From Trichoplax sp. H2 (Eukaryota), in assembly GCA_003344405.1 (NCBI GenBank), contig NOWV01000153.1, forward strand, positions 62,001 to 126,000: DNA of 64,000 nt. Reading direction: 5' to 3'. A program made the position numbers and the translations under genes. Below, piece after piece: positions 23,101 through 54,904 of this stretch (its first letter is position 1; each line of letters starts with the position of its first letter). The notes beneath the pieces were generated by a model, which was not told the origin of the DNA, ran no database searches, and was given only the letters and a program-made list of their open reading frames with translations.

Positions 23101-23796
23101 AGAGCGATGGAATCAAATACCTTTATACGAGTACTGAAGTACTTTAAACCATTCAATAGACAGTGTAAAAATTATTTAAGAAGTAAGCTCTACTAAATAT
23201 CCATATGGTCCTAATTTTTGTTTATGAAACTATGCAATGATTACAAGGGCTTGATCTCCTTTATATAGATTGTATGTAAGATTTACTAAATCTTGGCTCT
23301 CAGTCATTTTAGCACTTAATAACCCAATATTTAGTATTATGTTTTCTCATTGCCTCATCATTCGACGTATAATTGACTTTGAACATTTCGTTTGAGTGAA
23401 TAAACGGAACGGTAACTAAATAGCGGCAGTCATTCAAAGTATCATTTTTCCGGTTACCCTTCTACATGCCTGCAAAATGATGGTCGAAGTATACGTAAAT
23501 TGCGTCACAATTAACTTACACTGATACGATACAATATACAAAATTTCAAATCTTTTCGTAATTTTAATCACTTTTCACCACTGAGAATAAACTAGTGCAT
23601 ACCAATAAATTTCTTAACTTGATGTAACCGAAAGTCAAGATTACGGTACAAATCGTTAATATTTGCAAAGCTATTTTAAATTTTATTACTGATATAAATT
23701 TAAGAATAAAAATTTGTGAAGTCAAATGTTTAAAAATGAATTAGTTTATTTGACGATTAAGCTGAGCGAAAATCTGATGTTGAGTTTAGTTCGAAA

Positions 23797-26700
23797 ATGA
23801 GCAAGAAAGAAAGGACACGCCTTGCAGCTCGAAGTAGACGTTTGGAAGAAAATGATTTAATGAAGAAGCTAGCTCAGCTATTACCAATTATATCAGATGT
23901 CGCTCGGCAACTCGATAAAGCCGCCGTTATTCGTTTAGCTATAAGTGTTTTGAAACTACGTCAACGAACCTTAAATCACAACGGTAACTTCGGTATTTTT
24001 CTATTGGTTACAACTGTCTCTTTATAAGCAATATTACTGCATGTATTCCTTATTACAATATTAGTTCTTTACATAACTATTCTTTCAGCTTCATGTAAAG
24101 ATTTTTCAGTTTTGAGCTGCCTTAGTCTCCGTAAAGACTTTTTTCGCAAATTTAAGGATTTATCACCTCGACAACTTAGTTGAATAGCCTAATACTTGAG
24201 GACTTTGAACAAGAAGTCATAAATTTTTTTTCAGCGATCGTTTATAGCGATGATCATGAATTACTTTCTAGCCATGAAATCTTGATAACAGTCGCAATAT
24301 TTAACCTCAAAATCAGTTAAAATGTAAAGATAGAAATTTGAGAAATCATACTAACCTTTAAATTCCTTTCTTCTTCCACATCCATGATAGGCCCTTCCGT
24401 TGTTGAAGCTAATTTAGTCCAACATATGCATAACAGTACGGCTAACATATCATAAGATGGATCAGCTACTGTATTTTAATGAATTGCGAAATTATTGTGT
24501 ATTATAAATTTGGCTAATTTTAGACCATTTTAGATGTATACTATTCGAATATACTAAAATGCGAATGTTTCATCGATATCAATATGTTGTTCACGTTTGC
24601 TATTATAATAGGACAGAGGAAATATTTGCACATCCAAAGATACTTCAAAAGCAATATTGGGTGGTATCTTCTTCAAGTAAATTTATTGATTAGCTGAAAC
24701 AAATAATGAAAAGACATATTTTAAGAGTTTCCGTTTGCAGCTTTTTTATTTCTGACCTTGCATTTCACTTCTATCCATTTATAATTTCTATCTAAAATAA
24801 TCAGGCATTAGATGGATTTCTATTATTGATTTCTAATGATTGCCAGCTATTATACGTTTCAGAAAGAATTTCTGTGCATTTAGGTTTGTCACAAGTAAGT
24901 CGAAAGTTGACATTTTCATATGCTTAATTTCTCATGAGTTATTTTTACCTAATAAATTGTAGCGTGATATTTTTCTGCTTCAAAAGCTGCATTAGGTAAT
25001 TGTTGAATGTGCAACATCATGCTTTCATAGGTTGACTTAATTGGATCAAGTTTATTGGACATTATTCATTCTGATGACAAGGAAAAATTATATAATTTTC
25101 TAAGTATTGACCTGTATTCGAATGAACCTGGTACGCACAATCTTATTTTAAACTTGCAAATGTAAAATTTTGATTAGTAATAGTTTTCTTCCTGGTTGAT
25201 ACATTTGGCCATAAATCATTCAAATATTCTATAAAATGTCCAGTAATGTATTTACAAGTACATCCAAAGGTCCTCCTCTAAGCGTATTATTGTCCTGTAA
25301 GACCTCCAATTTCAATTTCAATAGCTGCATACATTTCACAGATTCAATAAACAATTCTGCGTTATACCAAATTTACATAAAAAGCTATCAGCTAGTTTCA
25401 TAATTGATTCCTAATAAATGTTTAGATCAGCTATATGGAATTCATTTAGCAATTTTAAGTGTTGTTAGCATAGTCTGATTCAGTCATAATTGAAACTGTG
25501 GGCTGTTACAGTAAAATAATCCTACCTTATCAGAATCGTATGAGGCGAAATTATTGATTATTAGAAAATATATATACCCTAGCTTGCTTGCAGCTCAATA
25601 TTACTTGACATAGCTAAATCATATGTTCAATTACCGATAGGCAAAGGTAATGCTATTAATGAACTTAGCGGTAAAAGTCGATCTATTTTAATTCGCATGA
25701 AATGCAAGCTAGTTAAGCGCTTTGCGCTTGATCGTGGCAATAAAAGAGCTATGAATCAGCAAAATAAAAATTATAAGGTAAAACCATCAATTTATGTTAT
25801 TCCTTTCAATATAGATTTAATGCCATAAAATAGGAGATGAACGTTAGGAAATTCATTCGTCTTTACTAGAATTTGGATAAAGCTAGCAATATTTTAATTA
25901 AAACAACTCTCTGAATGTCATAATAAAAATTAGGAGAAATAATCTCGAAACGGATGCTCGTTGCGAATAAAACTAAATACGCAATACGTACCTTACGTAT
26001 GAAAGAGTAGTTTGCGAACATCATGCATTATGATATATTTGACAACATCAGATATCGTTACAGAATTAAATTATTGACTGCAATCTTGACTTTTAATTAA
26101 TCGTAATGTGAATGAAATCTTTCAAATATAACTAGATTTCACGATGCTAAATATGTGCTGCAAAGTGAAATTGCAAGAACTCGTACAACACCTTTTCTGA
26201 TTATTATAATATGTAACTTAACTTTTGCACTCATAGATAATTGCTACAATATTTGGTTCTCTTAATTGAATTCACTTCAATCTTATCATACTAACAACAA
26301 GGTTACTTTTACTTTCCTAGATAATTCGTTTTACCACTCACCATCGTCAATTGTCATGCTTCCGTTACCAACTTCCTAAAGATTTTGGTTCAATATATGA
26401 ATCAGCGATCGTTGCTGAACCTATTGCATCATTACAAACTTTAGAGAATCAAAATAGTAGCCGAACCTTTCTCTGTTATCTTACTTGCAATTTAGAAATA
26501 TTATGCTGCACGGAAGGGTAGGGTAACTTTAATAGCGTTACATTTAATGGTTAGAAATACGTGTAGTTATATCAGCATGCTACTTTCCTTATATTGTTAT
26601 ATCGTATAAGGCAAGTTTACTCTTATTTATTAGGCTGAATCTTTACTTATTTGTTAGTTTGCAGTATTGTACTGGTTTTCGTGAAGAAGAAGTCCAGGGT

Positions 26701-29515: not shown

Positions 29516-29829
29516 TGCACAGTCATGGCTATGTCAGCTCAACCAAATAATAGCGTATTTACTGTTGATTATTTATTACCATTGTAATCAGTAAAAACTA
29601 GAATTGCAATACGTATAGTTCATTCAAGACTTCAGCGCTTTATTATTACCAAACTAATAGCGGTCAGATGCTAATGCTGAACTGCAATACGCTTTCATAT
29701 CTAGTGCTCAATCTATCCAATTCAAGTGAGGGTGTTTTATGTGATGATTATCATAGCAACGTAATAATACGATATGAATTATTAATGAAAATCACCTTAC
29801 GGCTATTATATACCCATCTGCTGAGTCAT
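29516..29829 (-). promoter_or_regulatory. Two antioxidant-response-element (ARE / CNC-sMaf) matches upstream of the first GST
   Basis: TGCACAGTCAT (29516-29526) and TGCTGAGTCAT (29819-29829) read ATGACnnnGCA on the minus strand; the second is the canonical NF-E2/ARE site ATGACTCAGCA. A reverse CCAAT box lies near 29858 and TATATAA at 30073-30079. Confidence 0.55.
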
Positions 29830-30201: not shown

Positions 30202-30927
30202 ATGGCTCAATTCTTAGGAAAAGGAAGTCCGCGTCCTCCTAAAACCAGCAAAGTTCGGTTGTATTGCTCACGTTTCGATCCTTTCACCGCTGGCCTCCGC
30301 TATGTTTTAAGAGAAAAAGGTGTTGAATTTGAGAATATTTACATCGACACTCACAACGACACAGCTGAATGGTACAAAGACATCAATCCAACTGGTGAAA
30401 TCCCGTGTGTGGAGATCGGAGATGAAGCTATTCCTGAAACTTTCATCATCTATGACTACCTGGAAGCTAAATTTCCTAGTGTGAAGACTCAACATACTGG
30501 TAATGCTTACAAATGGGCAAAAGATCGATTGTTTGCAACTCGCATCTCGCAAAATTTGGCACCTAAAATTGGTGGACTTGTCAAGGAACCTGAAAAAAAC
30601 CTCAGTGAAATTGCTACCAAATTGAAGACTGTTAATTCTATCTTGAGTAAGCGTGGCACAGATTATATTGGTGGTTCAAGCCCAAACTATGCCGATTATT
30701 ACCTTTGGGGCTGGGTTGAATTAATACCTGCAATAAAAGCTGCCCATAATTTGAAGTTTGATTTGGATCGTGAAGAGTATAAACATTACTGGGCATGGAT
30801 CTCTCGCATGGATAAGAACAAGCACATTGAACAAGATCGTATCGATCGCAAAGTTAACTTAAAGTTACGTACTGAATTTTTCAAATCTGTCATTGCCGGA
30901 AAACCTAATGTACTCGTTGGATTGTAA
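30202..30927 (+). CDS. GSTO: Omega-class glutathione S-transferase-like protein 1 (active-site Cys->Asp), intronless
   Basis: Omega N-terminus LGKGSPRPP..RLYCSRFDPF, INPTGEIP (cis-Pro loop), ET..IYDYL, GGSSPNYADYYLWGW and C-terminal GL. ATG at 30202; the ORF-track start at 30196 is a GTG. Confidence 0.92.
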   Translation: MAQFLGKGSPRPPKTSKVRLYCSRFDPFTAGLRYVLREKGVEFENIYIDTHNDTAEWYKDINPTGEIPCVEIGDEAIPETFIIYDYLEAKFPSVKTQHTGNAYKWAKDRLFATRISQNLAPKIGGLVKEPEKNLSEIATKLKTVNSILSKRGTDYIGGSSPNYADYYLWGWVELIPAIKAAHNLKFDLDREEYKHYWAWISRMDKNKHIEQDRIDRKVNLKLRTEFFKSVIAGKPNVLVGL

Positions 30928-32556
30928 CGTAAAAGAGTTTTATGCGATATTCATATACGGAAATTCTGAATAAAACATTAGTTTTAAATATACCTATTTT
31001 AAAAGCTAATCATACGTATCTTGTATGCTGATACGTATATAATCGTTACAATATATTAGTAATAATAATTAATCACAGGTTTATGTACCTCGTAGGTTCA
31101 GATGAATTTCAGGTGTAAATTTTCTACAAAACATTTTATAGAGACCTATTTTAATTGCAAAAACTTCAACGTTGTTCGATTATTAAAAATTGACTTAATG
31201 TTAATTAGCTTCATATTTATTCATTTAAACTTTGACATCGTAAATAAAACTACTAGTTATTGAAGTACGTAACACATCATGTCTTGTTCCTGAATCCAAT
31301 TATACTTAGTCATGCATTAGTAAAGAACATAAAGCCTACCATGGTAGTTAGAGCTACAGGTAGCCCTAGTTCTAAGGCAACTGATAAGAGCTAATGGCTA
31401 ATACTGTACGCACACATGCAGTTACTACAATACAATAATCAGCAAAGTATCGCATCCGCACGTGCCCGGGTATGCACACTAAAGATTAAAAAGCTCCTTA
31501 AAATTCTTAACATAGAATTAAAGACTACATTTTATATGTATTAGATAGTGCCATGTAGTTTATCGTGCTTCTTAAGCAGTGATTTTTTATTCGTAACTGG
31601 TTATTGGATGACCGTTGTGAAAACATTGTGCAAAATCCATTTGCAGAATTTTTCCAGGAAGACAAATTGTAAAATTTTAGCTCCTCGGCTCTGAAGTCAG
31701 ATTCATATTTTATGCTATGCACGTAAACAAGGTTAGAAATACTGTACTTTACTACTATGTATACTTCAACTGCTTATGAGGGCAGTCTAATAGGATAGGT
31801 CATAAGATAGATACCGATAGATATCGTGTTCTGCCATCATAGCATCGTGATATTGCTATTGCTTTATTTACAGATTTTGTAAAGTAAATCGAATTAATTA
31901 TTTTATACTCAATCATTCATCTACTTTATTAATGGGTTACTTACTTAACATGCAACGTTAGATTTCTTTCGATGCTTAAAAGTAAACCGCAGTATATGTC
32001 TAACGACTGGCACAATGCATAAGAGGGTAATTAAGGAGGCGCCTGATGATTATACCCTAATCGACATCTCCTTTACTCATGTATCTGCTGATTAGTACCG
32101 TGCTAGAGCCAAGCTCAAGAGATATTCAAAAATCTGCTGTACTCAAACCGTGAAACAGAGATTAAGAGGTTTTGCAATCTTTATAACCGATTAAATGAGC
32201 TATCCATGTCCCATTTATATTCACAAAATTTCTGACCAAACGCTAATATCAATAAGCATACCAACACTATCGATAATTTCATTTTTAAACCTTTTATTGG
32301 CTGTATCTCATCAAATGCTTCCCACCTATGACAAAATTATTTTCCGGCGTTACATATCTGCAAATGCTATCCAATCCAACCAACGTGGTGCATTAGTTAC
32401 TAGTTTACATGTATCGATTAGGAGAACGACATACAAGTAAATCTGCAAGCTAAACTAATAATAAAACAGCTAATGTCATGCGCATCTTTCCAAATTCATA
32501 CGTCTTAAAAAATTGACATCATGAGTAAAGAATCACTGCAAGCATTTTTGTCATCG

Positions 32557-33279
32557 TTAAAGTCCAACTTTCATATTTGGGCTCCCAGCCTTGACCGTTT
32601 TCAAGTATTCAGTTCGAGTTTGAAAGTTAACCTTACGATCAACACGGTCTTGTTCAATATGTTTATCTTTATCCATTCGGAAAACCCACGCAAAATAATT
32701 CTTGTAAGCTTTATCATTGTGGATGTCAATTTTTAGATCATGAGCGGCTTTCAACGATGGAATCACTTCAACCCAAGCAAACAAATAATAATCTGCATAA
32801 TTTGGTTTATCGCCACCGATATAATCTGTTCCTCGCATTCCTAAAATCTCATCTACCTTTTTTAATTTTGCAAGGAGATCATCGACATTATCATTGGGAT
32901 TTTTAAGGCAGCCAGTAATCTTTGGCACTACATTTTGCTTAAATCGAGTGACAAATAAGCGATCTTTGCTCCACTTGTAAGCATCCCCAGTTCGTTGCAT
33001 TTTTACTTGTGGAAATTTAGCTTCCAAGTAGTCGTGGATGATCATACTTTCAGGGATCACCTCATCCCCACACTCTACGCAAGGAATCTCACCGGTTGGG
33101 TTGATGTCATTATACCATTCGGGCTTATCTTGTAGGTTAATATAACAATCTTCGAAATCAATACCTTTAGCTCGTAAAACATATCGAAGAGATGCACTAT
33201 ATGGATCAAATCGTGAGGAATATAATCTTACTTTGGATGACTTTGCTGGACGTGAAGTTGATTTATCCAAGAATGACAT
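32557..33279 (-). CDS. GSTO: Omega-class GST-like protein 2 (Cys->Asp), intronless
   Basis: 240-aa ORF with RLYSSRFDPYS, KPEW, NPTGEIP, ESMII, NYADYYLFAW and terminal VGL. Minus-strand TATAAAA at 33387-33393. Confidence 0.92.
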   Translation of the reverse strand: MSFLDKSTSRPAKSSKVRLYSSRFDPYSASLRYVLRAKGIDFEDCYINLQDKPEWYNDINPTGEIPCVECGDEVIPESMIIHDYLEAKFPQVKMQRTGDAYKWSKDRLFVTRFKQNVVPKITGCLKNPNDNVDDLLAKLKKVDEILGMRGTDYIGGDKPNYADYYLFAWVEVIPSLKAAHDLKIDIHNDKAYKNYFAWVFRMDKDKHIEQDRVDRKVNFQTRTEYLKTVKAGSPNMKVGL

Positions 33280-34438
33280 GTTGTTGATTTGTTATTTATT
33301 TCCTATTACTGTAGCTCAAATCACGAATTTTTGGCACGTCGTCGTACTTATTGGAGGAAAAGGAAGATTTGCCAATTCGAAGCTCTTTTTATACAGTACT
33401 GTCTGTCGCCCCTTGCTACTGTACTGTACGCATTTATAGTATAAATTCAATTTTATACAGTCAATAAGTATAGTTCAAATAAAATCGAATATATCATTAA
33501 ACATGTGATAGCGAATATGAAAGGCATGCGCTATGCAGTAAAATAAAATAAAATAAGTAAATAAATGGATAAAATAAATAACTTGCTGTTAATAATAAAA
33601 TTTAATTTATGTCATTTATTTATTTACTGTTAATAAGAATACAGTTATAGCACAGTAAACTACAATTTACAGCACGGTTTAATCAGATCACTATAACAAA
33701 CCTATACAGTACATACTGGTTGAAAGCTGTTCAGCACTATTGTGTGGCCTTCACTAGGTCTTGAAGTTTTTAAGCGATTTGTATTATTAAATTTAGTTAA
33801 AATTTCACTTAAAGAGATCCTTACAACCTAAAACACTTGTTGTTTTATTTATTTACAGTTTATTAATTTTACTGAAGAAGTAGTGGAGTTATTTTATTCT
33901 CTTGAAGGTTTCTATTAATGCAAACCACCAAGTCCTCGATAAATGCCAACTCGTATGTACAACTCACACAGTGATAGTAATAGCAGGGCAGTCGGACTCT
34001 ACAATGACTGAAGATGGGTCGAGTAGTCTCTGCTATTAGACATGATTAAGGAAAGAGAGAAGGACGGAAAACTGCTTTTCACCCATATTGGACAGCTGGA
34101 CAATGGACAGCGTACTGTAGTCCATGATACAGCACGGTTGCTCCAGCTTAAAACATACAGTACACTCAGTGAGTACAGTAGATAGTGCAAAGGGTGACCA
34201 ACAGTCCCTTTGCAAAAACATCGAAGTGGAGTATTTTGCTGGTCACTTTACTATGCCAGGAAACTGGAACCGTAAACTATATTAGACACTGAGTAGAGTA
34301 CTGTAGACTTCTCAAGTGGAACATTTAGGATCAATCTCTCTATAGTCTATAGTACAGTTTCTGCAAAACAGGAAGGTCGAGAAAATAGGATTCATTTTAG
34401 TATAAGTCGGAAGAAAACGATAGCGAGTCCTTCGCAAA

Positions 34439-35164
34439 ATGGCTCAAATCCAGTTACTAACGAAAGGAAGTGAACGGCCACCTAAATCTTCCAAAGTACG
34501 CTTATATGGTGCACGATTTGACACTCACAGCGCCGGAATTCGCTATGTACTGCGCGATAAAGGGATCGATTTCGAAGATGTATACATACATACCTTCGTC
34601 AAACCCGAATGGTATGAGGATATTAATCCGGTAGGTAAAATTCCTTGTGTGGAATACGGCGATGAAATTGTTCCTGAAACCTTTGTAATCTATGATTACC
34701 TGGAGGAAAAATTTCCAAGTAAAGGCTCTCAGCAAATGGATGCATACAAAAGAAGTATGGATAGAGTGTTCATGGTACGATGTGCTGAATTTTTAACACC
34801 TAAAATTATCGACTGTATGAAAAATGCAAAGGATAATCTTGCAAGCTTAGAGCAAGCCTTATTAAAAGTCAATGATATCTTGCTTAAGCGAGGTACTCAT
34901 TATTTTGGTGGCTCTAGTCCAAACTACGTTGATTACTACTTATGGAGTTGGGTAGAAGTCATGCCGGTGATGATTGGGCTTCATGGAGTAAAACTGGAAT
35001 TGGATAAAGAGAAATACACAACCTATTTGGCTTGGATCGACCGCATGGATAAGAACGAACACGTTGAAAAGGATCGCTTAGAACGTAAAGTCAATTTTGA
35101 GACCAGAACAGAATATTTAAAATCCCTTTTAGCTGGTCGTCCAAATCCAACTATTGGGCTTTAA
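34439..35164 (+). CDS. GSTO: Omega-class GST-like protein 3 (Cys->Asp), intronless
   Basis: 241-aa ORF with RLYGARFDTHS, KPEW, NPVGKIP, ETFVI, NYVDYYLWSW and terminal IGL. Confidence 0.92.
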   Translation: MAQIQLLTKGSERPPKSSKVRLYGARFDTHSAGIRYVLRDKGIDFEDVYIHTFVKPEWYEDINPVGKIPCVEYGDEIVPETFVIYDYLEEKFPSKGSQQMDAYKRSMDRVFMVRCAEFLTPKIIDCMKNAKDNLASLEQALLKVNDILLKRGTHYFGGSSPNYVDYYLWSWVEVMPVMIGLHGVKLELDKEKYTTYLAWIDRMDKNEHVEKDRLERKVNFETRTEYLKSLLAGRPNPTIGL

Positions 35165-35996
35165 TTAGTGGCGAAAGTTTCAGTGTGCTATCTTATTGTA
35201 TGTTTTCATAGGAAATTGATTAAAAGATTTACAGTAAGAGTGGACAGCATGTAAAAATGTAACAGGATCAACTTGCAAGAACGACCCTCCATGCAATCCA
35301 GTAGATGGATTGTGCATAACTTGATACGCGGCACATATTTCGATTTTGAGATATCTCTACTCTCTTAAACTGTGTGTTTTCTAGAAAATAAACTAAATTT
35401 ATGGTTAAATCGTGTGATGATTTTTAAAACGCCTATGTTTTAATTTTTGAAAGTGGTGGTACTGTGCGGCGAAGTCATTTGTATGCATTATTTTCGAAAA
35501 TAAGTAATATTATATTGGAATCGAACTAACATCCCCTTGAAAACAGTTACATAAAGTCGTGAAAGTTTATAAATTAGCACAAGTGATTCAGAAAAATACG
35601 TGCAATTAGGTTGTCACTAGTGCTGCGTAGTATCGGCATTTGCTACTAACATTACTGTATGTATACTTTAAGAATTCAGTACTTAATCAAGAGGTACATG
35701 TACTGTATCACTACGGGTCTGTGTGTTTTACCGTTAGGACTCGCAATCAGGTATACATTTTTTACTCTTAATTCAATAATAAAATTTATTAACAACCTGG
35801 ATGATAATATGGAATACAGCTATAGTAAAGCAGCATTCACTGCAACAACAGTGACATTATTAATTGACAAACGGAAATTGCATACGCAATACTGAGCGAA
35901 TTTAATTAGTTAATTTTCCTTCAAGATGAGCTCAGAAATCAATTATTTTACATGGTATATATCAGTTAGGTCTCCGAACTATCCCGATTTACAGGC

Positions 35997-36713
35997 TTAC
36001 AGCCCAACCTTAACATCCGGAGATCCTGCAAGTACAGTTTTAAAGAAGGCAGTGCGGTTCTTTAAATCAGCTTTATGAGTAGCTCGATCATTCTCAACGT
36101 TCTTGTCCTTATCCATGCGCATAACCCAAGCCCAGTAATTGCTGTATTCATTCTTATCCAACTCAAATTTCAAATCATGAGCTCCTTTCAAAGCTGGAAG
36201 TAGCTCTACCCATCCGAACAAGAAATAATCAGCAAAGTTAGGACTAGCTCCACCTAGATAGTCGGTACCACGTTTGCCCATAATGCCATCAATGATCTTC
36301 AAGACCTTGGTGACTTCTTCAAGGTTATCATTTGGATTTTTAACACAGCCGGTAATTTTTGGAGTAAGATATTCCTTGGTATGAGCTACAAATATCTTGT
36401 CTTGAGCCTTCTTGTACGGATCAGTTGGTTGGGTCTTTACCTGAGGATATTTATCTTCTAGATAATCGTAGATAACGGACGTTTCTGATACGACTTCGTC
36501 GCCAGTCTCCAAGCATGGTATATGACCGGTGGGATTGACCTCCTTGTACCATTCAGGCTTGTTATGGACATCGACGTAAGCATATTCATAGTCGATGCCT
36601 TTTGCACCCAATACAAAACGAATTCCAGCACTATAAGGATCAAATCGCGAAGTGTACAGTCGCGGCTTCGATGATTTTGCTGGACGTTGACTATCTTTGC
36701 CCAAGAATGACAT
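35997..36713 (-). CDS. GSTO: Omega-class GST-like protein 4 (Cys->Asp), intronless
   Basis: ATG at 36713 (MSFLGKDSQRPAKSSKPRLYTSRFDPYS) aligns with the paralog starts. NPTGHIP, NFADYFLFGW and terminal VGL present. Minus-strand TATAAAT at 36819-36825. Confidence 0.92.
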   Translation of the reverse strand: MSFLGKDSQRPAKSSKPRLYTSRFDPYSAGIRFVLGAKGIDYEYAYVDVHNKPEWYKEVNPTGHIPCLETGDEVVSETSVIYDYLEDKYPQVKTQPTDPYKKAQDKIFVAHTKEYLTPKITGCVKNPNDNLEEVTKVLKIIDGIMGKRGTDYLGGASPNFADYFLFGWVELLPALKGAHDLKFELDKNEYSNYWAWVMRMDKDKNVENDRATHKADLKNRTAFFKTVLAGSPDVKVGL

Positions 36714-37195
36714 ACTTTCAGAGTCGATTTCAAAGCGTGCACAGTACAACAAAAAGTAGACGAGCAAAACAAGGATTCCCGAGTTGGAACTTGAGCTCGT
36801 TCTGCAGCAAGACACGATATTTATACTATCGGGGCTTTAAGTGGGCGGGATAAAGCGAACAGATAAGAATTTAGCGGGATAGACTGTCTGGTTTTGTACT
36901 TTATGCATATGCTACTATCCACAGAGCAGCACGCTACAAACAATGGAACAGCGTGTAAATAGTACAGTTTTACAGAATCATATTTTCTAGCTACATTTTA
37001 TTGAACAGCTACAATTCTAATGGTGAATAGTTTAGTCTCATGGGCATGTTAAGGATAGCAGCGTTTTTTTGAATAAATCCAAAAGCATAAACGGTAGATT
37101 GGTGTTGCGTTTGGTAAAGTACTTGAATGTACCGTGTCCTAATATACAGTGAATATGACAATATACACAATTACACATGTAACGGTACCGTACTA

Positions 37196-39272
37196 TATTC
37201 GGAGGCGGATCTTTTAACTAGTAATATGGCAAGAATTAAATTAACATCGTACATGTTCGTGCAGCTCATTTGGAGAATAAAAGAGCTGTTGACACAAAAG
37301 TGCTGAATCATTATTATCTGCAAAATTCTTTCCACGCGATTGGCTACTGAATGCAAGACAATCAAAACATGAAATAGTTTACGATTAATTAATAATAAGA
37401 ATAAGAATAATAATAATAAGAATAATTTTACGCTTTCACCGCTCTGGCGTGTAGAATATGATGTACATTTGTACAGTGCTGTATCTTTACAGTGGTAGAC
37501 CGAGACGAACAAATCGAGTTACTGTACGTCGTTTACCATTATTTTTTTTCATGATATCTATTAATTAAATGGGCTATTTAATTACTTGTTTGCCCCTCGA
37601 TGCTGTCGCGGACTGTCAACAAAAAGCCCAAGGGTCTCTGAGGAGCATGTGCTCTCAAATGGAAGCTATAATAACGCCATTAAATTAATGTTGAATGTTA
37701 AAATTTGTAATATGCGCTAACTCCATATACAGTATATGTACTATATATATATATATGCCATATACACCACTACAGTACGTGAATGTTTCAAGATTGCAAG
37801 TTGCAATTTCTTCAAATTGATCGCGCTACTGTGCTACTGGAATGTATAACATTTTAAATTTTATTTTATCTTCAGTAAGTTATACACGCGTAGGCAATAA
37901 ATAAATAATAATAATATAAATAATAATGTTAATAAGAATCATAACACTATAATAATTATTTATAACACACCGAAATTACAATGTAGGCGTATGTACCGAC
38001 GTACTCTACATGTACAGTACGTGTATTTATGTACTCGTATATAAAGAACAACAAAGTCGAACAAGTTTCATAATACCTAAAGTACGAATACAGTAATGTC
38101 ACTTTTGAGCAAGGGAAGCCCACGTCCAGCTAAATCTTCCAAGCCGCGCTTGTACACGGCAAGATTTGATCCCTACAGTGCTGGAATACGTTNNNNNNNN
38201 NNNNNNNNNNNNTATTCGGAGGCGGATCTTTTAACTAGTAATATGGCAAGAATTAAATTAACATCGTACATGTTCGTGCAGCTCATTTGGAGAATAAAAG
38301 AGCTGTTGACACAAAAGTGCTGAATCATTATTATCTGCAAAATTCTTTCCACGCGATTGGCTACTGAATGCAAGACAATCAAAACATGAAATAGTTTACG
38401 ATTAATAATAAGAATAAGAATAACTAGTGCAAACTCCCGTCGCTTTACTGACGGTTTACGATAATGTGCTCATTTAACAGAGGTTCAGTAACTTTATACC
38501 GTACCGTGTAGACCTGTCAGAGGTTCAGTAACTTTATATCGTGTACTGTGTACAGTACTGTACTGTACAGTAATGTACTAATCGAGTTACTGTACAGTAC
38601 AGTACGTCGTTTACCATTATTTTATTTTTTTCATGATATCTATTAAATGGGCTATTTAATTACTTGTTTGCCCCTCGATGCTGTCGCGGACTGTCAACAA
38701 AAAGCCCAAGGATCTCTGAGGAGCATGTGCTCACAAATGGAAGCTATAATAACGCCATTAAATTAAATTAATGTTGAATGTTAAAATTTGTAATATGCAC
38801 TAACTCCATATACAGTATATGTACTATATATATATACCATATACACCACTACAGTACGTGAATGTTTCAAGATTGCAAGTTGCAATTTCTTCAAATTGAT
38901 CGCGCGCGCTACTGTGCTACTGCAATGTATAACATTTCAAATTTTATTTTCAGTAAGTTATACACGCGTAGGCAATAAATAATAATATAAATAAATAATA
39001 ATGTTAATAAGAATCATAACACTATAATAATTATTTATAACACACCGAAATTACAATGTAGGCGAATGTACCGACGTACTCTACATGTACAATACGTGTA
39101 TTTATGTACTGTACTCGTATATAAAGAACAACAAAGTCTAACAAGTTTCATAATACCTAAAGTACGAATACAGTAATGTCGCTTTTGAGCAAGGGAAGCC
39201 CACGTCCAGCTAAATCTTCCAAGCCGCGCTTGTACACGGCAAGATTTGATCCCTACAGTGCTGGAATACGTT
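37196..39272. repeat. ~1-kb near-identical direct duplication (37196-38192 vs 38213-39272) across a 20-N gap; probable uncollapsed haplotypes
   Basis: Copy 2 starts exactly after the gap (38193-38212) and copy 1 ends exactly before it. The copies differ by scattered SNPs, small indels and one replaced segment. Includes the truncated GST start at 38096-38192. Confidence 0.85.
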
Positions 39273-39895
39273 TCCTTCTGAACAAAAAAGGGGTCGATTA
39301 CGACTTTGTCTACATCAATATCCAAGACAAACCAGAATGGCTGGCAGATATTAATCCTGCAGGTCAGATTCCTATAATGGAAATTGGTGATGAAATTGTC
39401 TGCGAAACGATTGTGATTTATGATTACTTAGAGGATAAGTTTCCTCAGGTCAAAACTCAGCCAACAGATCCTTACTTAAAAGCCAAAGATAAAATTTTTA
39501 TAGATCATACTAAAGAATATTTAACCGGCAAGATAACTTCGATGGTTAAAAATCCAACACAAGAAAATATTGAGTATGTCTGCAGTGTCATGAAATCGAT
39601 CAATAAGATCATGGGCGAACGAGGAACTGATTTCCTCGGTGGTACCAGCCCAAATTTCGTTGATTACTATCTATGGGGATGGGTAGAATTACTTTCTGCC
39701 TTGAAAGCCGCTCATGAATTATCATTCGAATTGGATAAAGACGAGTATAAGCATTATTGGGCATGGGTAATGAAAATGGACAAGGACCAACACATCAATA
39801 ATGATCGTGAGACTCATAAGCTGAATCTAAAGTGTCGGACAGCATTCTTTAAATCTGTAATTAACGGATCACCCGATGTAAATGCTGGATTATAG
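39176..39895 (+). CDS. GSTO: Omega-class GST-like protein 5 (Cys->Asp), intronless
   Basis: 239-aa ORF with RLYTARFDPYS, KPEW, NPAGQIP, ETIVI, NFVDYYLWGW and terminal AGL. TATATAAA near 39118. Confidence 0.92.
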   Translation: MSLLSKGSPRPAKSSKPRLYTARFDPYSAGIRFLLNKKGVDYDFVYINIQDKPEWLADINPAGQIPIMEIGDEIVCETIVIYDYLEDKFPQVKTQPTDPYLKAKDKIFIDHTKEYLTGKITSMVKNPTQENIEYVCSVMKSINKIMGERGTDFLGGTSPNFVDYYLWGWVELLSALKAAHELSFELDKDEYKHYWAWVMKMDKDQHINNDRETHKLNLKCRTAFFKSVINGSPDVNAGL

Positions 39896-40573
39896 ACGTA
39901 CTATCATGAATTTGGGATATTTGGAGATTAATTGACTGATCATCATTATCATAGGTTATGGTCAAAATCGACAAATCTATATATATGACATATATACAGT
40001 ACTAGTTCTAGTCTTTAGCAACAGTAAATATTTAATTCATTTTGCCTGTTGGAGATGGCCTGTACTGTATAATGTTGCATATTAATAGATTGCATGTGGG
40101 AGATCACCTGTAGAATTATATTATTCTTGAACTCAATTATATCAGGACACGGTGATTTTTTCCAATGTCATATCTTTTCTGCTCGTTGTACATCAAGTTT
40201 TTGCTCAAATAAAGTCGATGCTTCTTCCCAAAAAGTTAATCAAGTAACCTTGTTGCAATTGTTGTGTACAGTATGTTAGTGGAGGCATGATGGAGGTGTG
40301 TTGTACTGTACGGTGTACCTTGTACGCTGTTCACTACAGTAGTACCCTGGTCACCGCACCTGTCTACTGTACACAGTATTGCACAGTAGACAGGTATGGA
40401 GCACTGATCTACAGAAGGCAGCACTGTAGATCTTCTGTAAGTTTGATGTAAATTGTTTACAGTCTGCATGAACTGCAATTGCATTGCAACCAAGTTGAGA
40501 TGCGTTGGAACATGATCAAAAATTGGATTTGCTAATGCCATATTAGTGCACTAGCTACTGTATTCAAAATTGC

Positions 40574-41293
40574 ATGATGTCGATGTTAAGTCAAGGATGT
40601 GAGCGACCAGCTAAGAGTAGTAAATTACGCTTGTATGGGACAAGGTTTGATGCTTACTGTGTCGGATTTCGCCTAATGCTTATGGCTAAGGGAGTTGATT
40701 TCGAATTTGCTTTGCTTGATATGATTAACAAGCCAGATTGGTTCAAAGAGGTCAACCCAACTGGTAGAGTACCTACTGTGGAATTTGGAGACGAAACGGT
40801 CGGAGAGACCTTGGTGATTTATGATCATATTGAAAATAAATTTCCAGAAAAACCCATGCGCCCAACTGATGCTTAGAAAAAAGCTAAAGATGCTGAATTA
40901 ATGTCGCGTTTCGCTGAGCATTTTGCACCTCACATCTATGGAATGGTTAGAGCCCCGAAGGACCATATAGATGCTGTCAAGTCCGGATTAGAGAAAGTGA
41001 ATAAAGTTTTACCTCATCGAGCAACTGATTACTTTGGTGGTTCCTCTCCCAATTTAGTTGATTTTTATATATGGGGTTGGGTAGGATTGCTACCACCTTT
41101 ACATAGAGTTCATAAACTAAAAGCAAACTACTCGGAGGGTCATCATAACCATTACTTGGCTTGGTTGTCTCGCATGAAAGAACGTCCTTTAGTTCTGGCT
41201 GAACGAAAGTACGTCAAAGTCGATGTGGATATCCAGACACAGTTTATACAATCTGCACTCGATGGAAAAGCAAATCACTTAATTGGGTATTAA
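40574..41293 (+). pseudogene. GSTO: Omega-class GST-like copy 6 with one in-frame TAG (null allele, young pseudogene or base-call error)
   Basis: ORFs 40574-40876 and 40901-41293 are in the same frame. TAG at 40874-40876 gives PTDA*KKAKD versus paralog PTDPYKKAQD (TAY->TAG). The 720-nt frame has no other lesion. Confidence 0.8.
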
Positions 41294-41423
41294 ACTTCAT
41301 TCTATTTTAGAGATTGTAACGAGCCTTCAGTACAGTAGTGTAGTTTAAAGGAGAGAATTTGCTTTTGTTTAAATTACTTTGGATCAATTTTGCTAATTTA
41401 ATATGATTAGCGGCTGTAGATCC

Positions 41424-41527
41424 ATTCTATAATTTTACATATTATTTATTTTTGTTAAGTTCATGCAGCGGAGAAATTCTATAACTTTACATATTAATTA
41501 TTTTTGTTACATTCGTGCTGCCAAGAA
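41424..41527. repeat. Diverged tandem duplication, 52-bp unit x2
   Basis: ATTCTATAAYTTTACATATTAWTTATTTTTGTTA... begins at both 41424 and 41476. Confidence 0.7.
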
Positions 41528-50595: not shown

Positions 50596-52065
50596 ATGTG
50601 GCAAATGGTTCTTCTTAGCGCTATCGTTGGGCTTATAATTTATATGTTTTATACCCACTATATTCTGCCCTTGTATCACTTCAAAAGTAAAGATATACCA
50701 CACCCGAAGGCAAAAATTATTTTCGGTAATGTCCTAGATGATTGGTATCATGGCAGTCATGTAAATCAAATACGAAATATACAAAACTTTGGTCGTGTCT
50801 ATGGAACTTTGATTGGAACAGTTCCTATCATATGGATATCTGACCCTGACATGATTAAGGAAATAACTACTAAAAAGTTTCATTGCTTTGTTAATAGACA
50901 TCAAGACATTCCATTAACTATCGATGTACTATGCTACGGTATTGTCATTGCACGCGATGAGAGATGGAAACGTATCCGTCGAATTCTGTCTCCAACTTTT
51001 AGTACATCCAAATTAAAGCAGGCTCTAGTCGTAATTAATGATACCAGTCAGCAAGTCGTAGATAATTTGATTCATTCATTGTCATCAGAAGAATGCCATC
51101 AAACACAAGCTATCAATTACACCAAGATGTACACTACTGCTATTCTGAAATCAACTTTAGCAAATTCATTTGGCGTATATTCAGACATTACTAGAGATGG
51201 TAAACTTGGTAAGGCAATCCACACCATCTTTCATAATCAGGGTTCGGCGGTAATGTTAGCATCTATTTCGCCTTTTCTAACGAAGTATTTTGCTAAATTA
51301 ATACCTGGTACATTCGAAGCCTTCAATGTTTTAGATGATACTGTTAAGCAAGCAATTAGGGCTAGAAGAAAGGAAAATCCTTCGAACAGACGTAAAGATT
51401 TATTAAATCTGTTATTGGAATCACAAGATAGTGAAACATTAAGCGAAAAGGAAATATCTGCTCAGGCAACAACATTTCTTCTTGGAGGTTATGAATCGAC
51501 AAGAAATACATTAATTTTTGCAACATATTTAATTACTACTCATCCTGAAATTCAACAAAAGTTGATCGATGAAATTGATAGCTATTGTCCTGATCAAGAT
51601 TCATTAACTTATGACATTATATCTAAATTACCCTACTTAGATATGGTTGTTAGTGAAGTACTACGCTTATATCCCTCTTTTCCAGAAATTAGTCGTGATG
51701 TAGAGCAGGATGTTACTATCGCAGGAGTAAAATTATGCAAAGGTGATGCAATTAAGATTCCAGTGTATGGTATACATCGTGACAGTGAATTTTGGCCAAA
51801 TCCTGAAAAATTTTTACCGGAAAGGTTTAGTGCTGAATCGACCCAAAAACGTCATAATTGCTGTTACTTACCATTTGGACTAGGTCCTCGTTCGTGTATT
51901 GGTTTGAGGTTGGCGTTATTTACAATTAAAGTATTTCTAGTAAAGCAGTTGCAACAATTCGAATTTAAGGTTTGTGAACAAACTGTTACTTCTTTGGAGA
52001 TTGAAGCTAAGGCGTCGTTGTCGCCATTAAGCGATCTCTTTGTGCAAATAGTAAAAAGAAAATAA
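50596..52065 (+). CDS. Cytochrome P450, clan 3 (CYP3-like), intronless, 489 aa
   Basis: N-terminal membrane anchor, WKRIR (C-helix), LSPTFSTSKLK, I-helix GGYEST, K-helix EVLR, PERF and heme motif PFGLGPRSCIG. Confidence 0.95.
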   Translation: MWQMVLLSAIVGLIIYMFYTHYILPLYHFKSKDIPHPKAKIIFGNVLDDWYHGSHVNQIRNIQNFGRVYGTLIGTVPIIWISDPDMIKEITTKKFHCFVNRHQDIPLTIDVLCYGIVIARDERWKRIRRILSPTFSTSKLKQALVVINDTSQQVVDNLIHSLSSEECHQTQAINYTKMYTTAILKSTLANSFGVYSDITRDGKLGKAIHTIFHNQGSAVMLASISPFLTKYFAKLIPGTFEAFNVLDDTVKQAIRARRKENPSNRRKDLLNLLLESQDSETLSEKEISAQATTFLLGGYESTRNTLIFATYLITTHPEIQQKLIDEIDSYCPDQDSLTYDIISKLPYLDMVVSEVLRLYPSFPEISRDVEQDVTIAGVKLCKGDAIKIPVYGIHRDSEFWPNPEKFLPERFSAESTQKRHNCCYLPFGLGPRSCIGLRLALFTIKVFLVKQLQQFEFKVCEQTVTSLEIEAKASLSPLSDLFVQIVKRK

Positions 52066-53389: not shown

Positions 53390-54904
53390 ATGGATGAACA
53401 AATCAACTATATCGATTCTGGATTTTTATTCGGTGATCAACTCTTCTACCCTGTAGCTATTTTACTCATTTCATCCATACTAGCTTATTTCTTATATCGC
53501 AATATTATTGCACCACTGTACTATTTCCAACGCTTAGGCATTCCCAGTCCAAAACAAACCCCTTTCTTTGGTCATGTACTAAATATCAATCGTGATGGCT
53601 TTCAACATACTTACTTAAATTACACAAAACAAATGGGTCCTGTATACGGTTTAATGTTTGGCCGCGTACCTGAAATGGTAATATCAGATTTAGATATGGT
53701 CAAAGAAATTACTGTTAAGAGATTCAATCAATTTATTAATCGAGCTGAATTAATTAATCTTCCTAAAGAATCTCCTTTCTATGACGGGTTATTACGTTTA
53801 CGTGATCATCAGTGGAAGAGAGTTCGCGGCTTACTTGTGCCAACATTTAGCGGTGCTAAAATGCGACAAATTATTACCATTATGAATAATATTAGCCAAG
53901 GTCTAGTTGATCGACTGTTACAAAAATGCCAACAAGACGGTCAGATTGATATTTGGCAAGCTTATGGTCAAGTGACGATGCAAATTATATTAGCGATCGC
54001 TTTCGGTGTCGAATCGCACGGTCATAATGGATCTGACAATCTAACCAAGTCTGCTCGACGTATTACAGGAGTAGCCACTCGATTAATAGTATTAGTCCCG
54101 CTTTTCCCCAGTTTTATAGTACGATTATTACTTACGTTGAGGGGAAAAGGACGAGATGATGCCACATTTTTACGTGATACTGCTATGAAAGTGATTGAAT
54201 CAAGACGCGCTCATGGTCTGTCGTCTCGTAAAGACTTATTACAATTAATGATCGATGCTGGAGATAACGGTAAGCTGACTGACACCGAAGTTATTGCACA
54301 ATCCATCGTTTTCTTAATTGCCGGTTATGAAACTACAAGTAATGCATTAGCTTTTACCAGTTATCTACTAGCACTTAACCCCGATATACAAGATAAATTA
54401 ATTAAGGAAATTGATGAAAAATGTCCAGACGAGAATGCAATCGATTACGATACTATATCGAATTTAACTTACTTAGATATGGTTTTAGATGAAGCTATGA
54501 GAATATATCCACCAGCCTTCCGATTCAATCGAGAGGCAAGTGAGGATATTACTATTAACAATATTTTTATACCTAAAGGCATGACTGTCACTATTCCAAT
54601 TATCGCGATACATCATGACCCCAAGCTATGGCCTAATCCTGATAAATTCGATCCAGAACGATTTTCAGCTAAGGCTAAGGCAGAACGTAATCCATATAGT
54701 TATATGCCGTTCGGAGTTGGTCCAAGAGCCTGCATTGGGATGCGATTGGCTGTTATTGAAGCTAAACTAATATTAATTCGAACTTTGCAGCAAGTTCGGT
54801 TCACCGTAGTTAAAGAAACGCCTATTCCTCTGAAATTTCGAGGAGGTGTTGTCACTTCGCCTAAAAATGGAATACGATTAGGATTAACCCCTAGAAATGT
54901 ATAG
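53390..54904 (+). CDS. Cytochrome P450, clan 3 (CYP3-like), intronless, 504 aa
   Basis: Membrane anchor, WKRVR, PTFSGAKMR, I-helix AGYETTS, EAMR, PERF and heme motif PFGVGPRACIG. Confidence 0.95.
   Translation: MDEQINYIDSGFLFGDQLFYPVAILLISSILAYFLYRNIIAPLYYFQRLGIPSPKQTPFFGHVLNINRDGFQHTYLNYTKQMGPVYGLMFGRVPEMVISDLDMVKEITVKRFNQFINRAELINLPKESPFYDGLLRLRDHQWKRVRGLLVPTFSGAKMRQIITIMNNISQGLVDRLLQKCQQDGQIDIWQAYGQVTMQIILAIAFGVESHGHNGSDNLTKSARRITGVATRLIVLVPLFPSFIVRLLLTLRGKGRDDATFLRDTAMKVIESRRAHGLSSRKDLLQLMIDAGDNGKLTDTEVIAQSIVFLIAGYETTSNALAFTSYLLALNPDIQDKLIKEIDEKCPDENAIDYDTISNLTYLDMVLDEAMRIYPPAFRFNREASEDITINNIFIPKGMTVTIPIIAIHHDPKLWPNPDKFDPERFSAKAKAERNPYSYMPFGVGPRACIGMRLAVIEAKLILIRTLQQVRFTVVKETPIPLKFRGGVVTSPKNGIRLGLTPRNV

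What the first reader, a model, noticed from the sequence alone, without database searches (positions are those of the whole stretch)
30202..41293. Expanded family of omega-class GSTs in which the catalytic cysteine is uniformly replaced by aspartate
Seen: six diverged paralogs read RF-DPFT, RF-DPYS, RF-DTHS, RF-DPYS, RF-DPYS and RF-DAYC. Established: omega GSTs have RF-CP(F/Y) here, and that Cys is required for thioltransferase, dehydroascorbate reductase and deglutathionylase chemistry. Cys (TGY) to Asp (GAY) needs two substitutions and is fixed in all copies while neighbouring residues vary, so it is not an error and looks selected. The G-site ES motif is also ET in five of six, while the cis-Pro loop and N-capping Asp are intact. 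As I recall, Asp at this position occurs in non-canonical GST-fold proteins (bacterial SspA, nematode CLIC EXC-4). Inference: an undescribed 'Asp-omega' subfamily with a different role, such as acid/base catalysis (isomerase), ligand or pigment binding, or an abundant structural role as in GST-derived crystallins.
Basis: partly seen in the sequence, partly recalled or inferred. Interest (0 to 1): 0.82.

Follow-up and report, generated by a model that had tools for sequence, protein, structure and literature searches.

The report
Placozoan omega GSTs with aspartate
A cluster of glutathione-transferase genes in the simple animal Trichoplax has swapped the enzyme's reactive cysteine for aspartate and rebuilt the surrounding pocket, so these conserved proteins probably do a job not yet described for this enzyme class.

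Summary
Window 30202-41293 carries six single-exon omega-class GST genes. All have Asp where human GSTO1 has catalytic Cys32. Two corrections apply. Gene 6 has an in-frame TAG, so five copies are intact. A 32-codon seventh "copy" beside an N gap is probably an assembly duplicate.

Source names place the window in Trichoplax, a placozoan. All 17 Asp-type sequences found belong to the clade that holds every named Trichoplax record, including paralogs on other scaffolds. The 16 put in the tree form one clade (SH-aLRT 99) inside Cys-type animal omegas.

The change is not a single residue. The near-invariant Arg37, Pro179 and Arg183 are also replaced, Trp222 becomes Arg, and a 4-residue insert adds another Arg. 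The glutathione-site residues are kept. Synonymous sites are saturated while pN is 0.19-0.40. Contigs from RNA libraries cover the genes.

Ser-type and Asn-type omegas are already known. No paper on an Asp type was found. I read this as a new active-site variant of a known class. Its function is inferred, not shown: glutathione-binding and non-redox.

The parts
30202..30927 (+). g1: intact single-exon omega-class GST, 241 aa, motif RFDPFT. The Lys of the KPEW motif is lost (NDTAEW).
   Evidence: RNA-library contig X17 30131-31256 is collinear with the DNA.
32557..33279 (-). g2: intact single-exon omega-class GST, 240 aa, motif RFDPYS. The only copy that keeps ES.
   Evidence: RNA-library contig X16 32277-33315.
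34439..35164 (+). g3: intact single-exon omega-class GST, 241 aa, motif RFDTHS (Pro and Tyr after the Asp are changed).
   Evidence: RNA-library contigs X16 34405-35531 and X17 34382-35799. Of 8 listed strain differences in the CDS, 4 are synonymous and 4 are not.
35997..36713 (-). g4: intact single-exon omega-class GST, 238 aa with its Met, motif RFDPYS.
   Evidence: Pieces of RNA-library contigs lie on it, and the X7 contig spans 35824-36773.
38096..38191 (+). 32-codon copy of the g5 start, ending at the N gap 38193-38212. Probably an assembly duplicate, not a gene.
   Evidence: Block 37196-38192 repeats at 38213-39272 at 98% and 93.6% identity. A contig of run X1 joins 37563 to 38642.
39176..39895 (+). 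g5: intact single-exon omega-class GST, 239 aa, motif RFDPYS. This is the copy that was modelled. Its stop codon is TAG.
   Evidence: X7 contig 39182-40148 and X17 contig 39275-39464.
40577..41293 (+). g6: most diverged copy, motif RFDAYC, with an in-frame TAG at 40874-40876. Likely a pseudogene in this lineage.
   Evidence: The public models P0018 and P0163 splice around the stop. The intact ortholog P0204 has Tyr there. RNA-library contig X16 40652-40880 runs unspliced across the site.

Best explanation
These genes form a placozoan-specific branch of the omega-class glutathione transferases. It arose by one Cys-to-Asp change at the catalytic position, followed by repeated duplication. There are at least eight paralog lines, six of them in this head-to-head and tail-to-tail array of single-exon genes.

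The proteins keep the omega fold and the glutathione (G) site. I therefore expect them still to bind glutathione or a gamma-glutamyl compound. Without the thiol they cannot form the enzyme-glutathione mixed disulfide. The class's thiol-transferase, dehydroascorbate-reductase and deglutathionylation chemistry should therefore be lost.

Asp25 sits at the N-cap of helix 1, next to where the glutathione sulfur lies in solved omega structures. The substrate (H) pocket has been rebuilt around it: Arg37 to Gly, Pro179 to Gly/Ser, Arg183 to Leu/Val, Trp222 to Arg, Tyr229 to Val.

Most likely role: non-redox, glutathione-dependent enzymes (transfer or acid/base isomerisation, with Asp25 as hydrogen-bond acceptor or general base, perhaps paired with Arg221), or carriers of small dietary or foreign molecules.

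Shown: class, position of the Asp, co-changes, conservation, and presence in RNA libraries. Inferred: glutathione binding, loss of redox chemistry, any catalytic role for the Asp, and the link to small-molecule handling.
For: Class and fold:
- The best solved relatives by sequence are all omega class. For g5 these are pyrimidodiazepine synthase (1.2e-35), Bombyx omega (4.6e-31) and human GSTO1 (about 1e-27). Tau class and SspA start at about 1e-15.
- The AF2 model has mean pLDDT 95.8, and helix 1 starts at residue 26.
- The first 20 Foldseek ranks listed are omega GSTs, with TM 0.82-0.87.

Position: Asp25 aligns with residue 32 of human GSTO1.

Single origin and spread:
- Of the 162 proteins tabulated, 127 have C, 15 have D, 10 have S, 1 has N, 1 has F, and 8 are gapped.
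- All 15 with D are the window's own proteins or members of the clade holding the named Trichoplax records.
- In the tree, all 16 Asp rows form one clade (SH-aLRT 99, stem length 0.77).

G site kept, 17 Asp-type against 91 Cys-type sequences: K/R52 in 16/17, I65-P66 in 16/17 and 17/17, E77 in 17/17, T/S78 in 17/17. These are the roles described in a passage of PMC4138524.

Co-changes:
- G30 in 15/17 against R in 90/91.
- Non-Pro at 168 in 17/17 against P in 88/91.
- Non-Arg at 172 in 17/17 against R in 75/91.
- R221 in 15/17 against H in 45/91.
- R211 in 17/17, inside an insert absent from 91/91.
- W222 and Y229 are named as H-site residues in a passage of PMC3621891.

Selection:
- Across 15 paralog pairs, pS is 0.68-0.85 and pN is 0.185-0.398.
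- Relatives of g1, g4, g5 and g6 from unnamed records are 82-87% identical and keep the Asp.

Expression: contigs of two RNA-seq libraries from one study cover the whole CDS of g1, g2 and g3 and parts of g4, g5 and g6, with no joints listed inside any CDS.

Context: two single-exon CYP3A-like P450 genes lie 9-13 kb downstream.
Against: - No biochemical evidence exists. Glutathione binding is inferred from five conserved positions only.
- g1 has lost the Lys of the G site.
- A carboxylate beside the glutathione sulfur would be expected to disfavour the thiolate (my own reasoning). This argues against simple conjugation.
- Another GST-fold protein with Asp at this position, EXC-4, is not known as a glutathione enzyme. 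Arg37 and Arg183, among the most conserved omega residues, are gone.
- I had no model coordinates, so the closeness of Asp25 to Arg221 is not measured.
- The P450 neighbours are weak context. ARE-core and XRE-like motifs are no more frequent than in shuffled sequence.
- The RNA evidence comes from assembled contigs, which show presence only. It gives no expression level, strand or cell type.
- g3 shows 4 non-synonymous among 8 listed strain differences, so at least that copy may be less constrained.
Confidence: 0.5

Rival explanations
1. The proteins no longer use glutathione. They are GST-fold binding, scaffold or structural proteins, like the CLIC protein EXC-4, bacterial SspA or GST-derived lens crystallins. 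On this view the Asp simply caps helix 1.
For: EXC-4 carries Asp at the position of CLIC1 Cys24 (passage of PMC5192407). The catalytic Cys and the near-invariant Arg37, Pro179 and Arg183 are all replaced. Bombyx GSTO3-3, with Asn at the site, is listed in a table of PMC4138524 with no GSH and glycerol as its ligand entry. Omega GSTs have a non-catalytic ligand site in the dimer interface (abstract and passages of PMC3621891).
Against: The residues that hold glutathione are kept across 17 sequences that differ by up to about 60% elsewhere: K/R52 in 16/17, I65-P66, E77 in 17/17, T/S78 in 17/17. That is hard to explain if the site were unused. No CLIC chain is among the 60 PDB sequence hits shown of 64 at E <= 0.001, or among the Foldseek ranks listed up to 48. 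The Pfam CLIC-like_N hits lie around their cut-off, 19.9-27.8 bits against 23.5.
Confidence: 0.25
2. Asp25, alone or together with the bound glutathione thiol, forms a site for a cation or metal. The family would then handle metals or cationic compounds rather than electrophiles.
For: The pocket loses two Arg (positions 37 and 183 in human numbering) and gains a carboxylate. Ca2+ is listed as the ligand in the EXC-4 and Drosophila CLIC crystal entries in a table of PMC4138524. The table does not say where the ion sits.
Against: Two new invariant or near-invariant Arg (R211, R221) enter the C-terminal helices, so the net charge of the pocket is unknown. No second acidic or His/Cys ligand specific to the clade was found among the clade-specific columns. 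This is inference only.
Confidence: 0.07
3. The copies are decaying duplicates with no function. The Asp is a neutral relic inherited from one dead ancestor.
For: g6 carries a premature TAG. g3 has lost the Pro-Tyr after the Asp and shows 4 non-synonymous among 8 listed strain differences.
Against: Five open frames of 238-241 codons persist although synonymous sites are saturated (pS 0.68-0.85) and pN is only 0.19-0.40. Relatives 82-87% identical in other placozoan-type records are intact, including the g6 relative. Contigs of RNA libraries cover the genes.
Confidence: 0.03

Closest known systems
Omega-class GSTs with catalytic Cys (human GSTO1/GSTO2, Bombyx GSTO, Drosophila pyrimidodiazepine synthase)
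   Same: Best matches by sequence (E 1e-35 to 1e-27 for g5) and by fold (TM 0.84-0.87). The N-terminal extension aligns from residue 4-5. They share the cis-Pro, Glu-Ser/Thr, the Lys of KPEW and the helix-6 capping Asp. The placozoan clade nests inside animal Cys-type omegas.
   Different: Cys32 becomes Asp, Arg37 becomes Gly, Pro179 becomes Gly/Ser, Arg183 becomes Leu/Val, Trp222 becomes Arg, Tyr229 becomes Val, and a 4-residue insert carries an invariant Arg. The genes here are single-exon.
Bombyx mori GSTO3-3 (PDB 3RBT), an omega GST with Asn for the catalytic Cys
   Same: It is classified as omega although it lacks the Cys (passage of PMC4138524). In some searches its Asn aligns with the Asp here. 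It is third by sequence for g5 (4.7e-29) and Foldseek rank 20.
   Different: It has Asn, not Asp, and it keeps the Arg equivalent to Arg37 (alignment). The one Asn-type row in the tree, P0032, lies far from the Asp clade, so the loss was independent. I saw only the citation of the paper titled 'activity restoration'; its content is recalled, not read.
Ser-type omega GSTs (fungal GSTO 2S/3S, PDB 6gib and 6f43; Ser variants in several animals)
   Same: The catalytic Cys is replaced within the omega class. 10 of the 162 tabulated proteins have Ser. Six of them were looked up: five are named, in Priapulus, Patiria, Timema, Oppiella and Paramacrobiotus, and one carries no name. A further Ser-type, P0017, is from Timema. 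The fungal entries are among the PDB hits.
   Different: Ser types keep Arg37 in 9 of 10 cases (context strings). The three Ser rows in the tree need two changes, so they are scattered. The Asp type is one deep, expanded clade with a rebuilt pocket.
CLIC family, in particular C. elegans EXC-4
   Same: A GST-fold relative of omega in which Asp stands at the position of the reactive Cys (CLIC1 Cys24) (passage of PMC5192407).
   Different: The placozoan proteins are not CLICs. No CLIC chain is among the PDB sequence hits shown or the Foldseek ranks listed, and the Pfam CLIC-like_N hits are marginal. The Asp arose independently.
Bacterial stringent starvation protein A (SspA)
   Same: GST fold. 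The N-terminal ~100 residues match at E 1e-8 to 1e-14.
   Different: It is bacterial, matches over the N-terminal domain only, and scores far weaker than omega.

Membership tests
Omega-class GST (by descent and fold) | Two-domain GST fold: thioredoxin-like N domain plus helical C domain | tested here: met
   Pfam GST_N/GST_N_3/GST_C families in g1-g5. AF2 model with pLDDT 95.8. Foldseek TM 0.82-0.87 to omega structures.
Omega-class GST (by descent and fold) | Closer to omega members than to any other GST class | tested here: met
   In one search the 13 best distinct PDB sequences are all omega class (1.2e-35 to 1.4e-26), and the next class starts at 1.9e-15. In one search the Asp clade nests among Cys-type animal omegas. 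Its exact sister group has only SH-aLRT 90.
Omega-class GST (by descent and fold) | N-terminal extension before strand 1 and extra C-terminal helices | tested here: met
   Strand 1 starts at residue 18 of the model, and helices span 205-213 and 218-229. Alignments to human GSTO1 start at query residue 4-5.
Omega-class GST (functional definition, Cys-GST) | [quoted passage not shown] | tested here: not met
   Asp in 17 of 17 clade members; Cys in 90 of 91 comparison omegas. The link between the Cys and deglutathionylation is stated in a passage of PMC6540824 and the abstract of PMC3621891.
Omega-class GST (functional definition, Cys-GST) | Near-invariant Arg37, Pro179 and Arg183 (human numbering) | tested here: not met
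   G/S/A at position 30, G/S/A at 168 and L/V/Q/A at 172 in 17/17. The comparison set has R in 90/91, P in 88/91 and R in 75/91. Numbering.
Omega-class GST (functional definition, Cys-GST) | G-site residues Lys59, Val72-cisPro73, Glu85-Ser86 | tested here: met
   K/R in 16/17, I/V-P in 17/17, E in 17/17, T/S in 17/17. The changes are conservative (Val to Ile, Ser to Thr).
Omega-class GST (functional definition, Cys-GST) | Thiol-transferase, dehydroascorbate-reductase or deglutathionylase activity | not testable with these tools
   Needs recombinant protein.
CLIC | Sequence or fold closer to CLIC than to other GST-fold families | tested here: not met
   No CLIC chain among the 60 shown of 64 PDB hits or among the Foldseek ranks listed to 48. 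CLIC-like_N scores 19.9-27.8 bits against a cut-off of 23.5.
SspA | Full-length similarity to bacterial SspA | tested here: not met
   Matches cover only query residues ~18-139, at E 1e-8 to 1e-14.

The most novel reading that the evidence does not exclude
Asp25, probably paired with the clade-specific Arg221 that replaces H-site Trp222, is a true catalytic residue. Placozoans would then have evolved a fourth catalytic type of cytosolic GST, after Tyr, Ser and Cys. It would use a carboxylate for glutathione-dependent acid/base chemistry, for example isomerisation, and then expanded to eight or more genes.
Probability: 0.2. Interest if true: 0.7.

Novelty: new variant of a known kind. Interest (0 to 1): 0.5.

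Why it matters
GST classes are largely told apart by the residue that activates glutathione (Tyr, Ser or Cys), and switches between these residues mark changes of chemistry. A conserved, expanded clade with a carboxylate at that position and a co-ordinately rebuilt pocket is a natural experiment on what else the fold can do. It occurs in one of the earliest-branching animal lineages. It is also cheap to test, because the proteins are small, soluble and encoded by single exons. In addition, public gene models hide part of the family: the models for g1 and g6 are mis-spliced.

Tried and rejected
- Whole-genome search: no genome is held for this window. I could not check whether Trichoplax also has a Cys-type omega GST, or whether the off-array paralog P0167 has introns.
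- Coverage gaps: several intergenic bins had no cover in runs X16, X17 and X7, while X1 covered 30 of 30 bins. For the same reason I cannot rank the genes by expression.
- The TAG in g6: contigs X16 40652-40880, X7 40847-41027 and X1 39362-41500 each differ from the window by 1, 1 and 9 letters. The positions are among the 44 rows the tool did not show. These runs therefore do not settle whether the TAG is present in them.
- Regulatory motifs: the ARE core TGACNNNGC has 14 matches against 11.6 expected, with 24 of 100 shuffles as high. The XRE-like KNGCGTG has 11 matches against 15.8 expected. There is no enrichment. Both motifs were recalled.
- dN/dS among paralogs: Jukes-Cantor dS is undefined (saturated) in 10 of 15 pairs. 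The other five give 0.19-0.30, which should be read as upper-bound estimates only.
- Literature: searches for Trichoplax with GST or omega terms, with pyrimidodiazepine synthase, with locus tags, for an Asp-type GSTO, and for a placozoan defensome found nothing relevant. One search was a badly framed search and returned noise. Supplements are closed, so placozoan single-cell atlases that may list these genes could not be checked.
- CLIC or SspA membership was considered and rejected (see the membership test).
- Recoding of TAG in g6 was rejected, because g5 ends in TAG.

Full report
**What is there.** Stop-to-stop ORFs and tblastn show six full-length GST reading frames, each with no interruption by introns:
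- g1 30202-30927 (+)
- g2 32557-33279 (-)
- g3 34439-35164 (+)
- g4 35997-36713 (-)
- g5 39176-39895 (+)
- g6 40577-41293 (+)

They alternate in orientation, with 681-2462 bases between them. The array is richer in G+C (0.34-0.37) than its flanks (0.28-0.31). The paralogs are 39-69% identical in protein.

Names given by public sources place the window in Trichoplax (Placozoa). g5 is letter-identical to a record held by NCBI and EukProt, and it shares a 90% cluster with T. adhaerens XP_002118311.1. g2 is identical to a protein on a 284-kb contig on which T. adhaerens records also lie.

**Corrections to the observation.**
- g6 has an in-frame TAG at 40874-40876. TAG is a working stop here, because g5 ends in TAG.
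- The codon is Tyr in the paralogs and in an intact 239-aa relative that is 82% identical (P0204).
- Two public gene models for g6, from T. adhaerens and from Trichoplax sp. H2, both cut the stop out with a predicted intron. The stop is therefore present in two assemblies, and g6 is probably a recent pseudogene in this lineage.
- A contig of an RNA library runs unspliced across the site (X16, 40652-40880). Whether it carries the TAG was not shown.
- The 32-codon fragment at 38096-38191 ends at an N gap. It lies in a block (37196-38192) repeated at 38213-39272 at 98% and 93.6% identity.
- A contig of run X1 joins 37563 directly to 38642. X1 covers all 30 bins at an even depth of about 100 apart from the repeat region, so it behaves like DNA. 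I read the fragment as an assembly duplicate.

**Class and position of the Asp.**
- Pfam finds GST N- and C-terminal domains in g1-g5.
- Against solved structures, the 13 best distinct sequences for g5 are all omega class (1.2e-35 to 1.4e-26). Tau-class GSTs and SspA start near 1e-15.
- An AlphaFold2 model of g5, built on an 82-sequence alignment, has mean pLDDT 95.8. Foldseek puts omega GSTs in the first 20 ranks listed, with TM 0.82-0.87.
- In the alignments, Asp25 of g5 lies opposite the mutated residue 32 of the human C32S and C32A chains, and opposite the Cys of insect omegas. Numbering was verified on 1eem.
- In the model, helix 1 begins at residue 26, so the Asp is at its N-cap.

**How widespread the Asp type is.** A full HMMER scan of 1.84 billion representatives with g5 gave 3045 hits at E <= 0.001. 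I could see the best 150.
- I tabulated those together with the placozoan set, 162 proteins in all. The catalytic column reads C 127, D 15, S 10, N 1, F 1, gap 8.
- All 15 with D are the window's proteins or their close relatives.
- Further searches added an off-array paralog, P0167. It is annotated in both T. adhaerens and Trichoplax sp. H2 and lies on a 9.7-Mb scaffold.
- They also added P0010, annotated in sp. H2 on a 34-kb contig, and relatives from unnamed records.
- I built a quick maximum-likelihood tree of 86 rows: 16 Asp-type plus the first 70 of 98 length-filtered hits. The other 28, and all hits outside 225-275 aa, were left out.
- The tree puts all 16 Asp rows in one clade (SH-aLRT 99, stem 0.77) inside Cys-type animal omegas. 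The nearest group, at SH-aLRT 90, includes tardigrade and nematode sequences.
- The Asp therefore arose once, before at least seven or eight duplications. What lies beyond the 150 best hits is unknown.

**More than one residue changed.** I compared 17 Asp-type sequences with 91 Cys-type sequences. Positions are in g5 numbering, with the human equivalent in brackets, mapped through.

| Position | Asp type (n=17) | Cys type (n=91) |
|---|---|---|
| 25 (C32) | D 17 | C 90 |
| 30 (R37) | G 15, S 1, A 1 | R 90 |
| 65 (V72) | I 16 | V 82 |
| 78 (S86) | T 15, S 2 | S 91 |
| 168 (P179) | G 12, S 4, A 1 | P 88 |
| 172 (R183) | L 12, V 3, Q 1, A 1 | R 75 |
| 221 (W222) | R 15, Q 2 | H 45 |
| 228 (Y229) | V 11 | Y 29 |
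| 160 | N 17 | G 54 |

A 4-residue insert with an invariant Arg211 is present in 17/17 Asp-type and absent from 91/91 Cys-type sequences.

W222 and Y229 are H-site residues of human GSTO1, by a passage of PMC3621891. In contrast, the residues that hold glutathione are kept: K/R52 in 16/17, Pro66 in 17/17, Glu77 in 17/17, Thr/Ser78 in 17/17. Their roles are described in a passage of PMC4138524.

The Ser-type omegas keep Arg37 in 9 of 10 cases, and so does the Asn type. The loss of Arg37 therefore goes with the Asp specifically. The g6 line differs again at four of these positions: Ala26, Cys28, Gly171 and Gln221.

**Selection and expression.**
- Among the 15 paralog pairs, pS is 0.68-0.85, which is saturated, while pN is 0.185-0.398.
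- Relatives of g1, g4, g5 and g6 in other records are 82-87% identical and intact.
- Two libraries recorded as RNA-seq, from one study, give contigs over the whole CDS of g1 (X17), g2 (X16) and g3 (both). They also cover parts of g4, g5 and g6.
- A third run of uncertain type (X7) covers g2-g5. No joints are listed inside any CDS. This shows presence only.
- Strain differences listed in the g3 CDS are 4 synonymous and 4 not. The sample is small, and it hints that g3 may be less constrained.

**Reading.** The proteins are omega GSTs by descent and fold, but they fail the functional definition of a Cys-GST. I expect them to bind glutathione and to have lost mixed-disulfide chemistry. I expect them to act as non-redox glutathione-dependent enzymes or as carriers of small molecules, with Asp25 (perhaps paired with Arg221) in place of the thiol (confidence 0.5). 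The main rival is a glutathione-independent binding or scaffold role, as in EXC-4, which has Asp at the same position (0.25). Decay is nearly excluded. Two single-exon CYP3A-like P450 genes 9-13 kb downstream give weak contextual support for a role in handling foreign or dietary compounds.

**Novelty.** Omegas without the Cys are already known. Bombyx GSTO3-3 has Asn (alignments). Fungal Ser types are among the PDB hits. Ser variants occur in at least five named animal lineages. I found no paper on an Asp type or on placozoan GSTs. Supplements and subscription journals were not searchable. I rate this a new variant of a known kind, of moderate interest.

Noticed in passing
window 50596-52065 (+) and 53390-54904 (+): Two single-exon cytochrome P450 genes in tandem (Pfam p450, E 8.5e-94 and 7.3e-104). 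For the second, the closest solved structures are human CYP3A4, CYP3A7 and CYP3A5 (E about 1e-94). Together with the GST array they look like a small cluster of detoxification-type genes.
   Followed up: partly
window 23761-24024 (+): An exon-sized ORF encodes a bHLH domain of the HIF/NPAS type (Pfam bHLH_HIF1A, 3.6e-11). The best solved matches are NPAS3 and HIF-1alpha; no AhR chain is among the 11 hits. The rest of the gene was not traced.
   Followed up: partly
window about 38420-38610, with a partial copy near 37410-37560: A short segment has a summed contig depth of 19,000-43,000 in the DNA-like run X1, against about 100 elsewhere, with many loose ends and joints. It is a high-copy repeat in the g4-g5 spacer.
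   Followed up: no
window 30202-30927 (g1) and 40577-41293 (g6): Public gene models are mis-spliced. The T. adhaerens model for g1 (P0014, 187 aa) omits residues 18-70, including the RFD motif, although an RNA-library contig is collinear with the DNA. Both models for g6 remove the stop codon with a predicted intron.
   Followed up: yes
window 29517-29828: Three of the window's 14 ARE-core-like matches cluster within about 310 bases, some 300-600 bases upstream of the start of the g1 transcript contig. One reads TGACTCAGC. Window-wide the motif is not enriched.
   Followed up: partly
g6 (window 40646-40663) and its relative P0204: The g6 line reads D-A-Y-C. A Cys stands three residues after the Asp, at the place of the second Cys of a glutaredoxin-type CxxC motif (that comparison is recalled). 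Gln replaces Arg221 and Gly replaces Glu171.
   Followed up: no
relatives P0006 and P0210 (unnamed records): The g5 relative and a g6 relative are both reported with a longest contig of 3885 bases. This hints that the g5-g6 adjacency is conserved in another placozoan. I could not check the contig itself.
   Followed up: no
window 61575-61594: A second run of 20 N, that is, an assembly gap.
   Followed up: no
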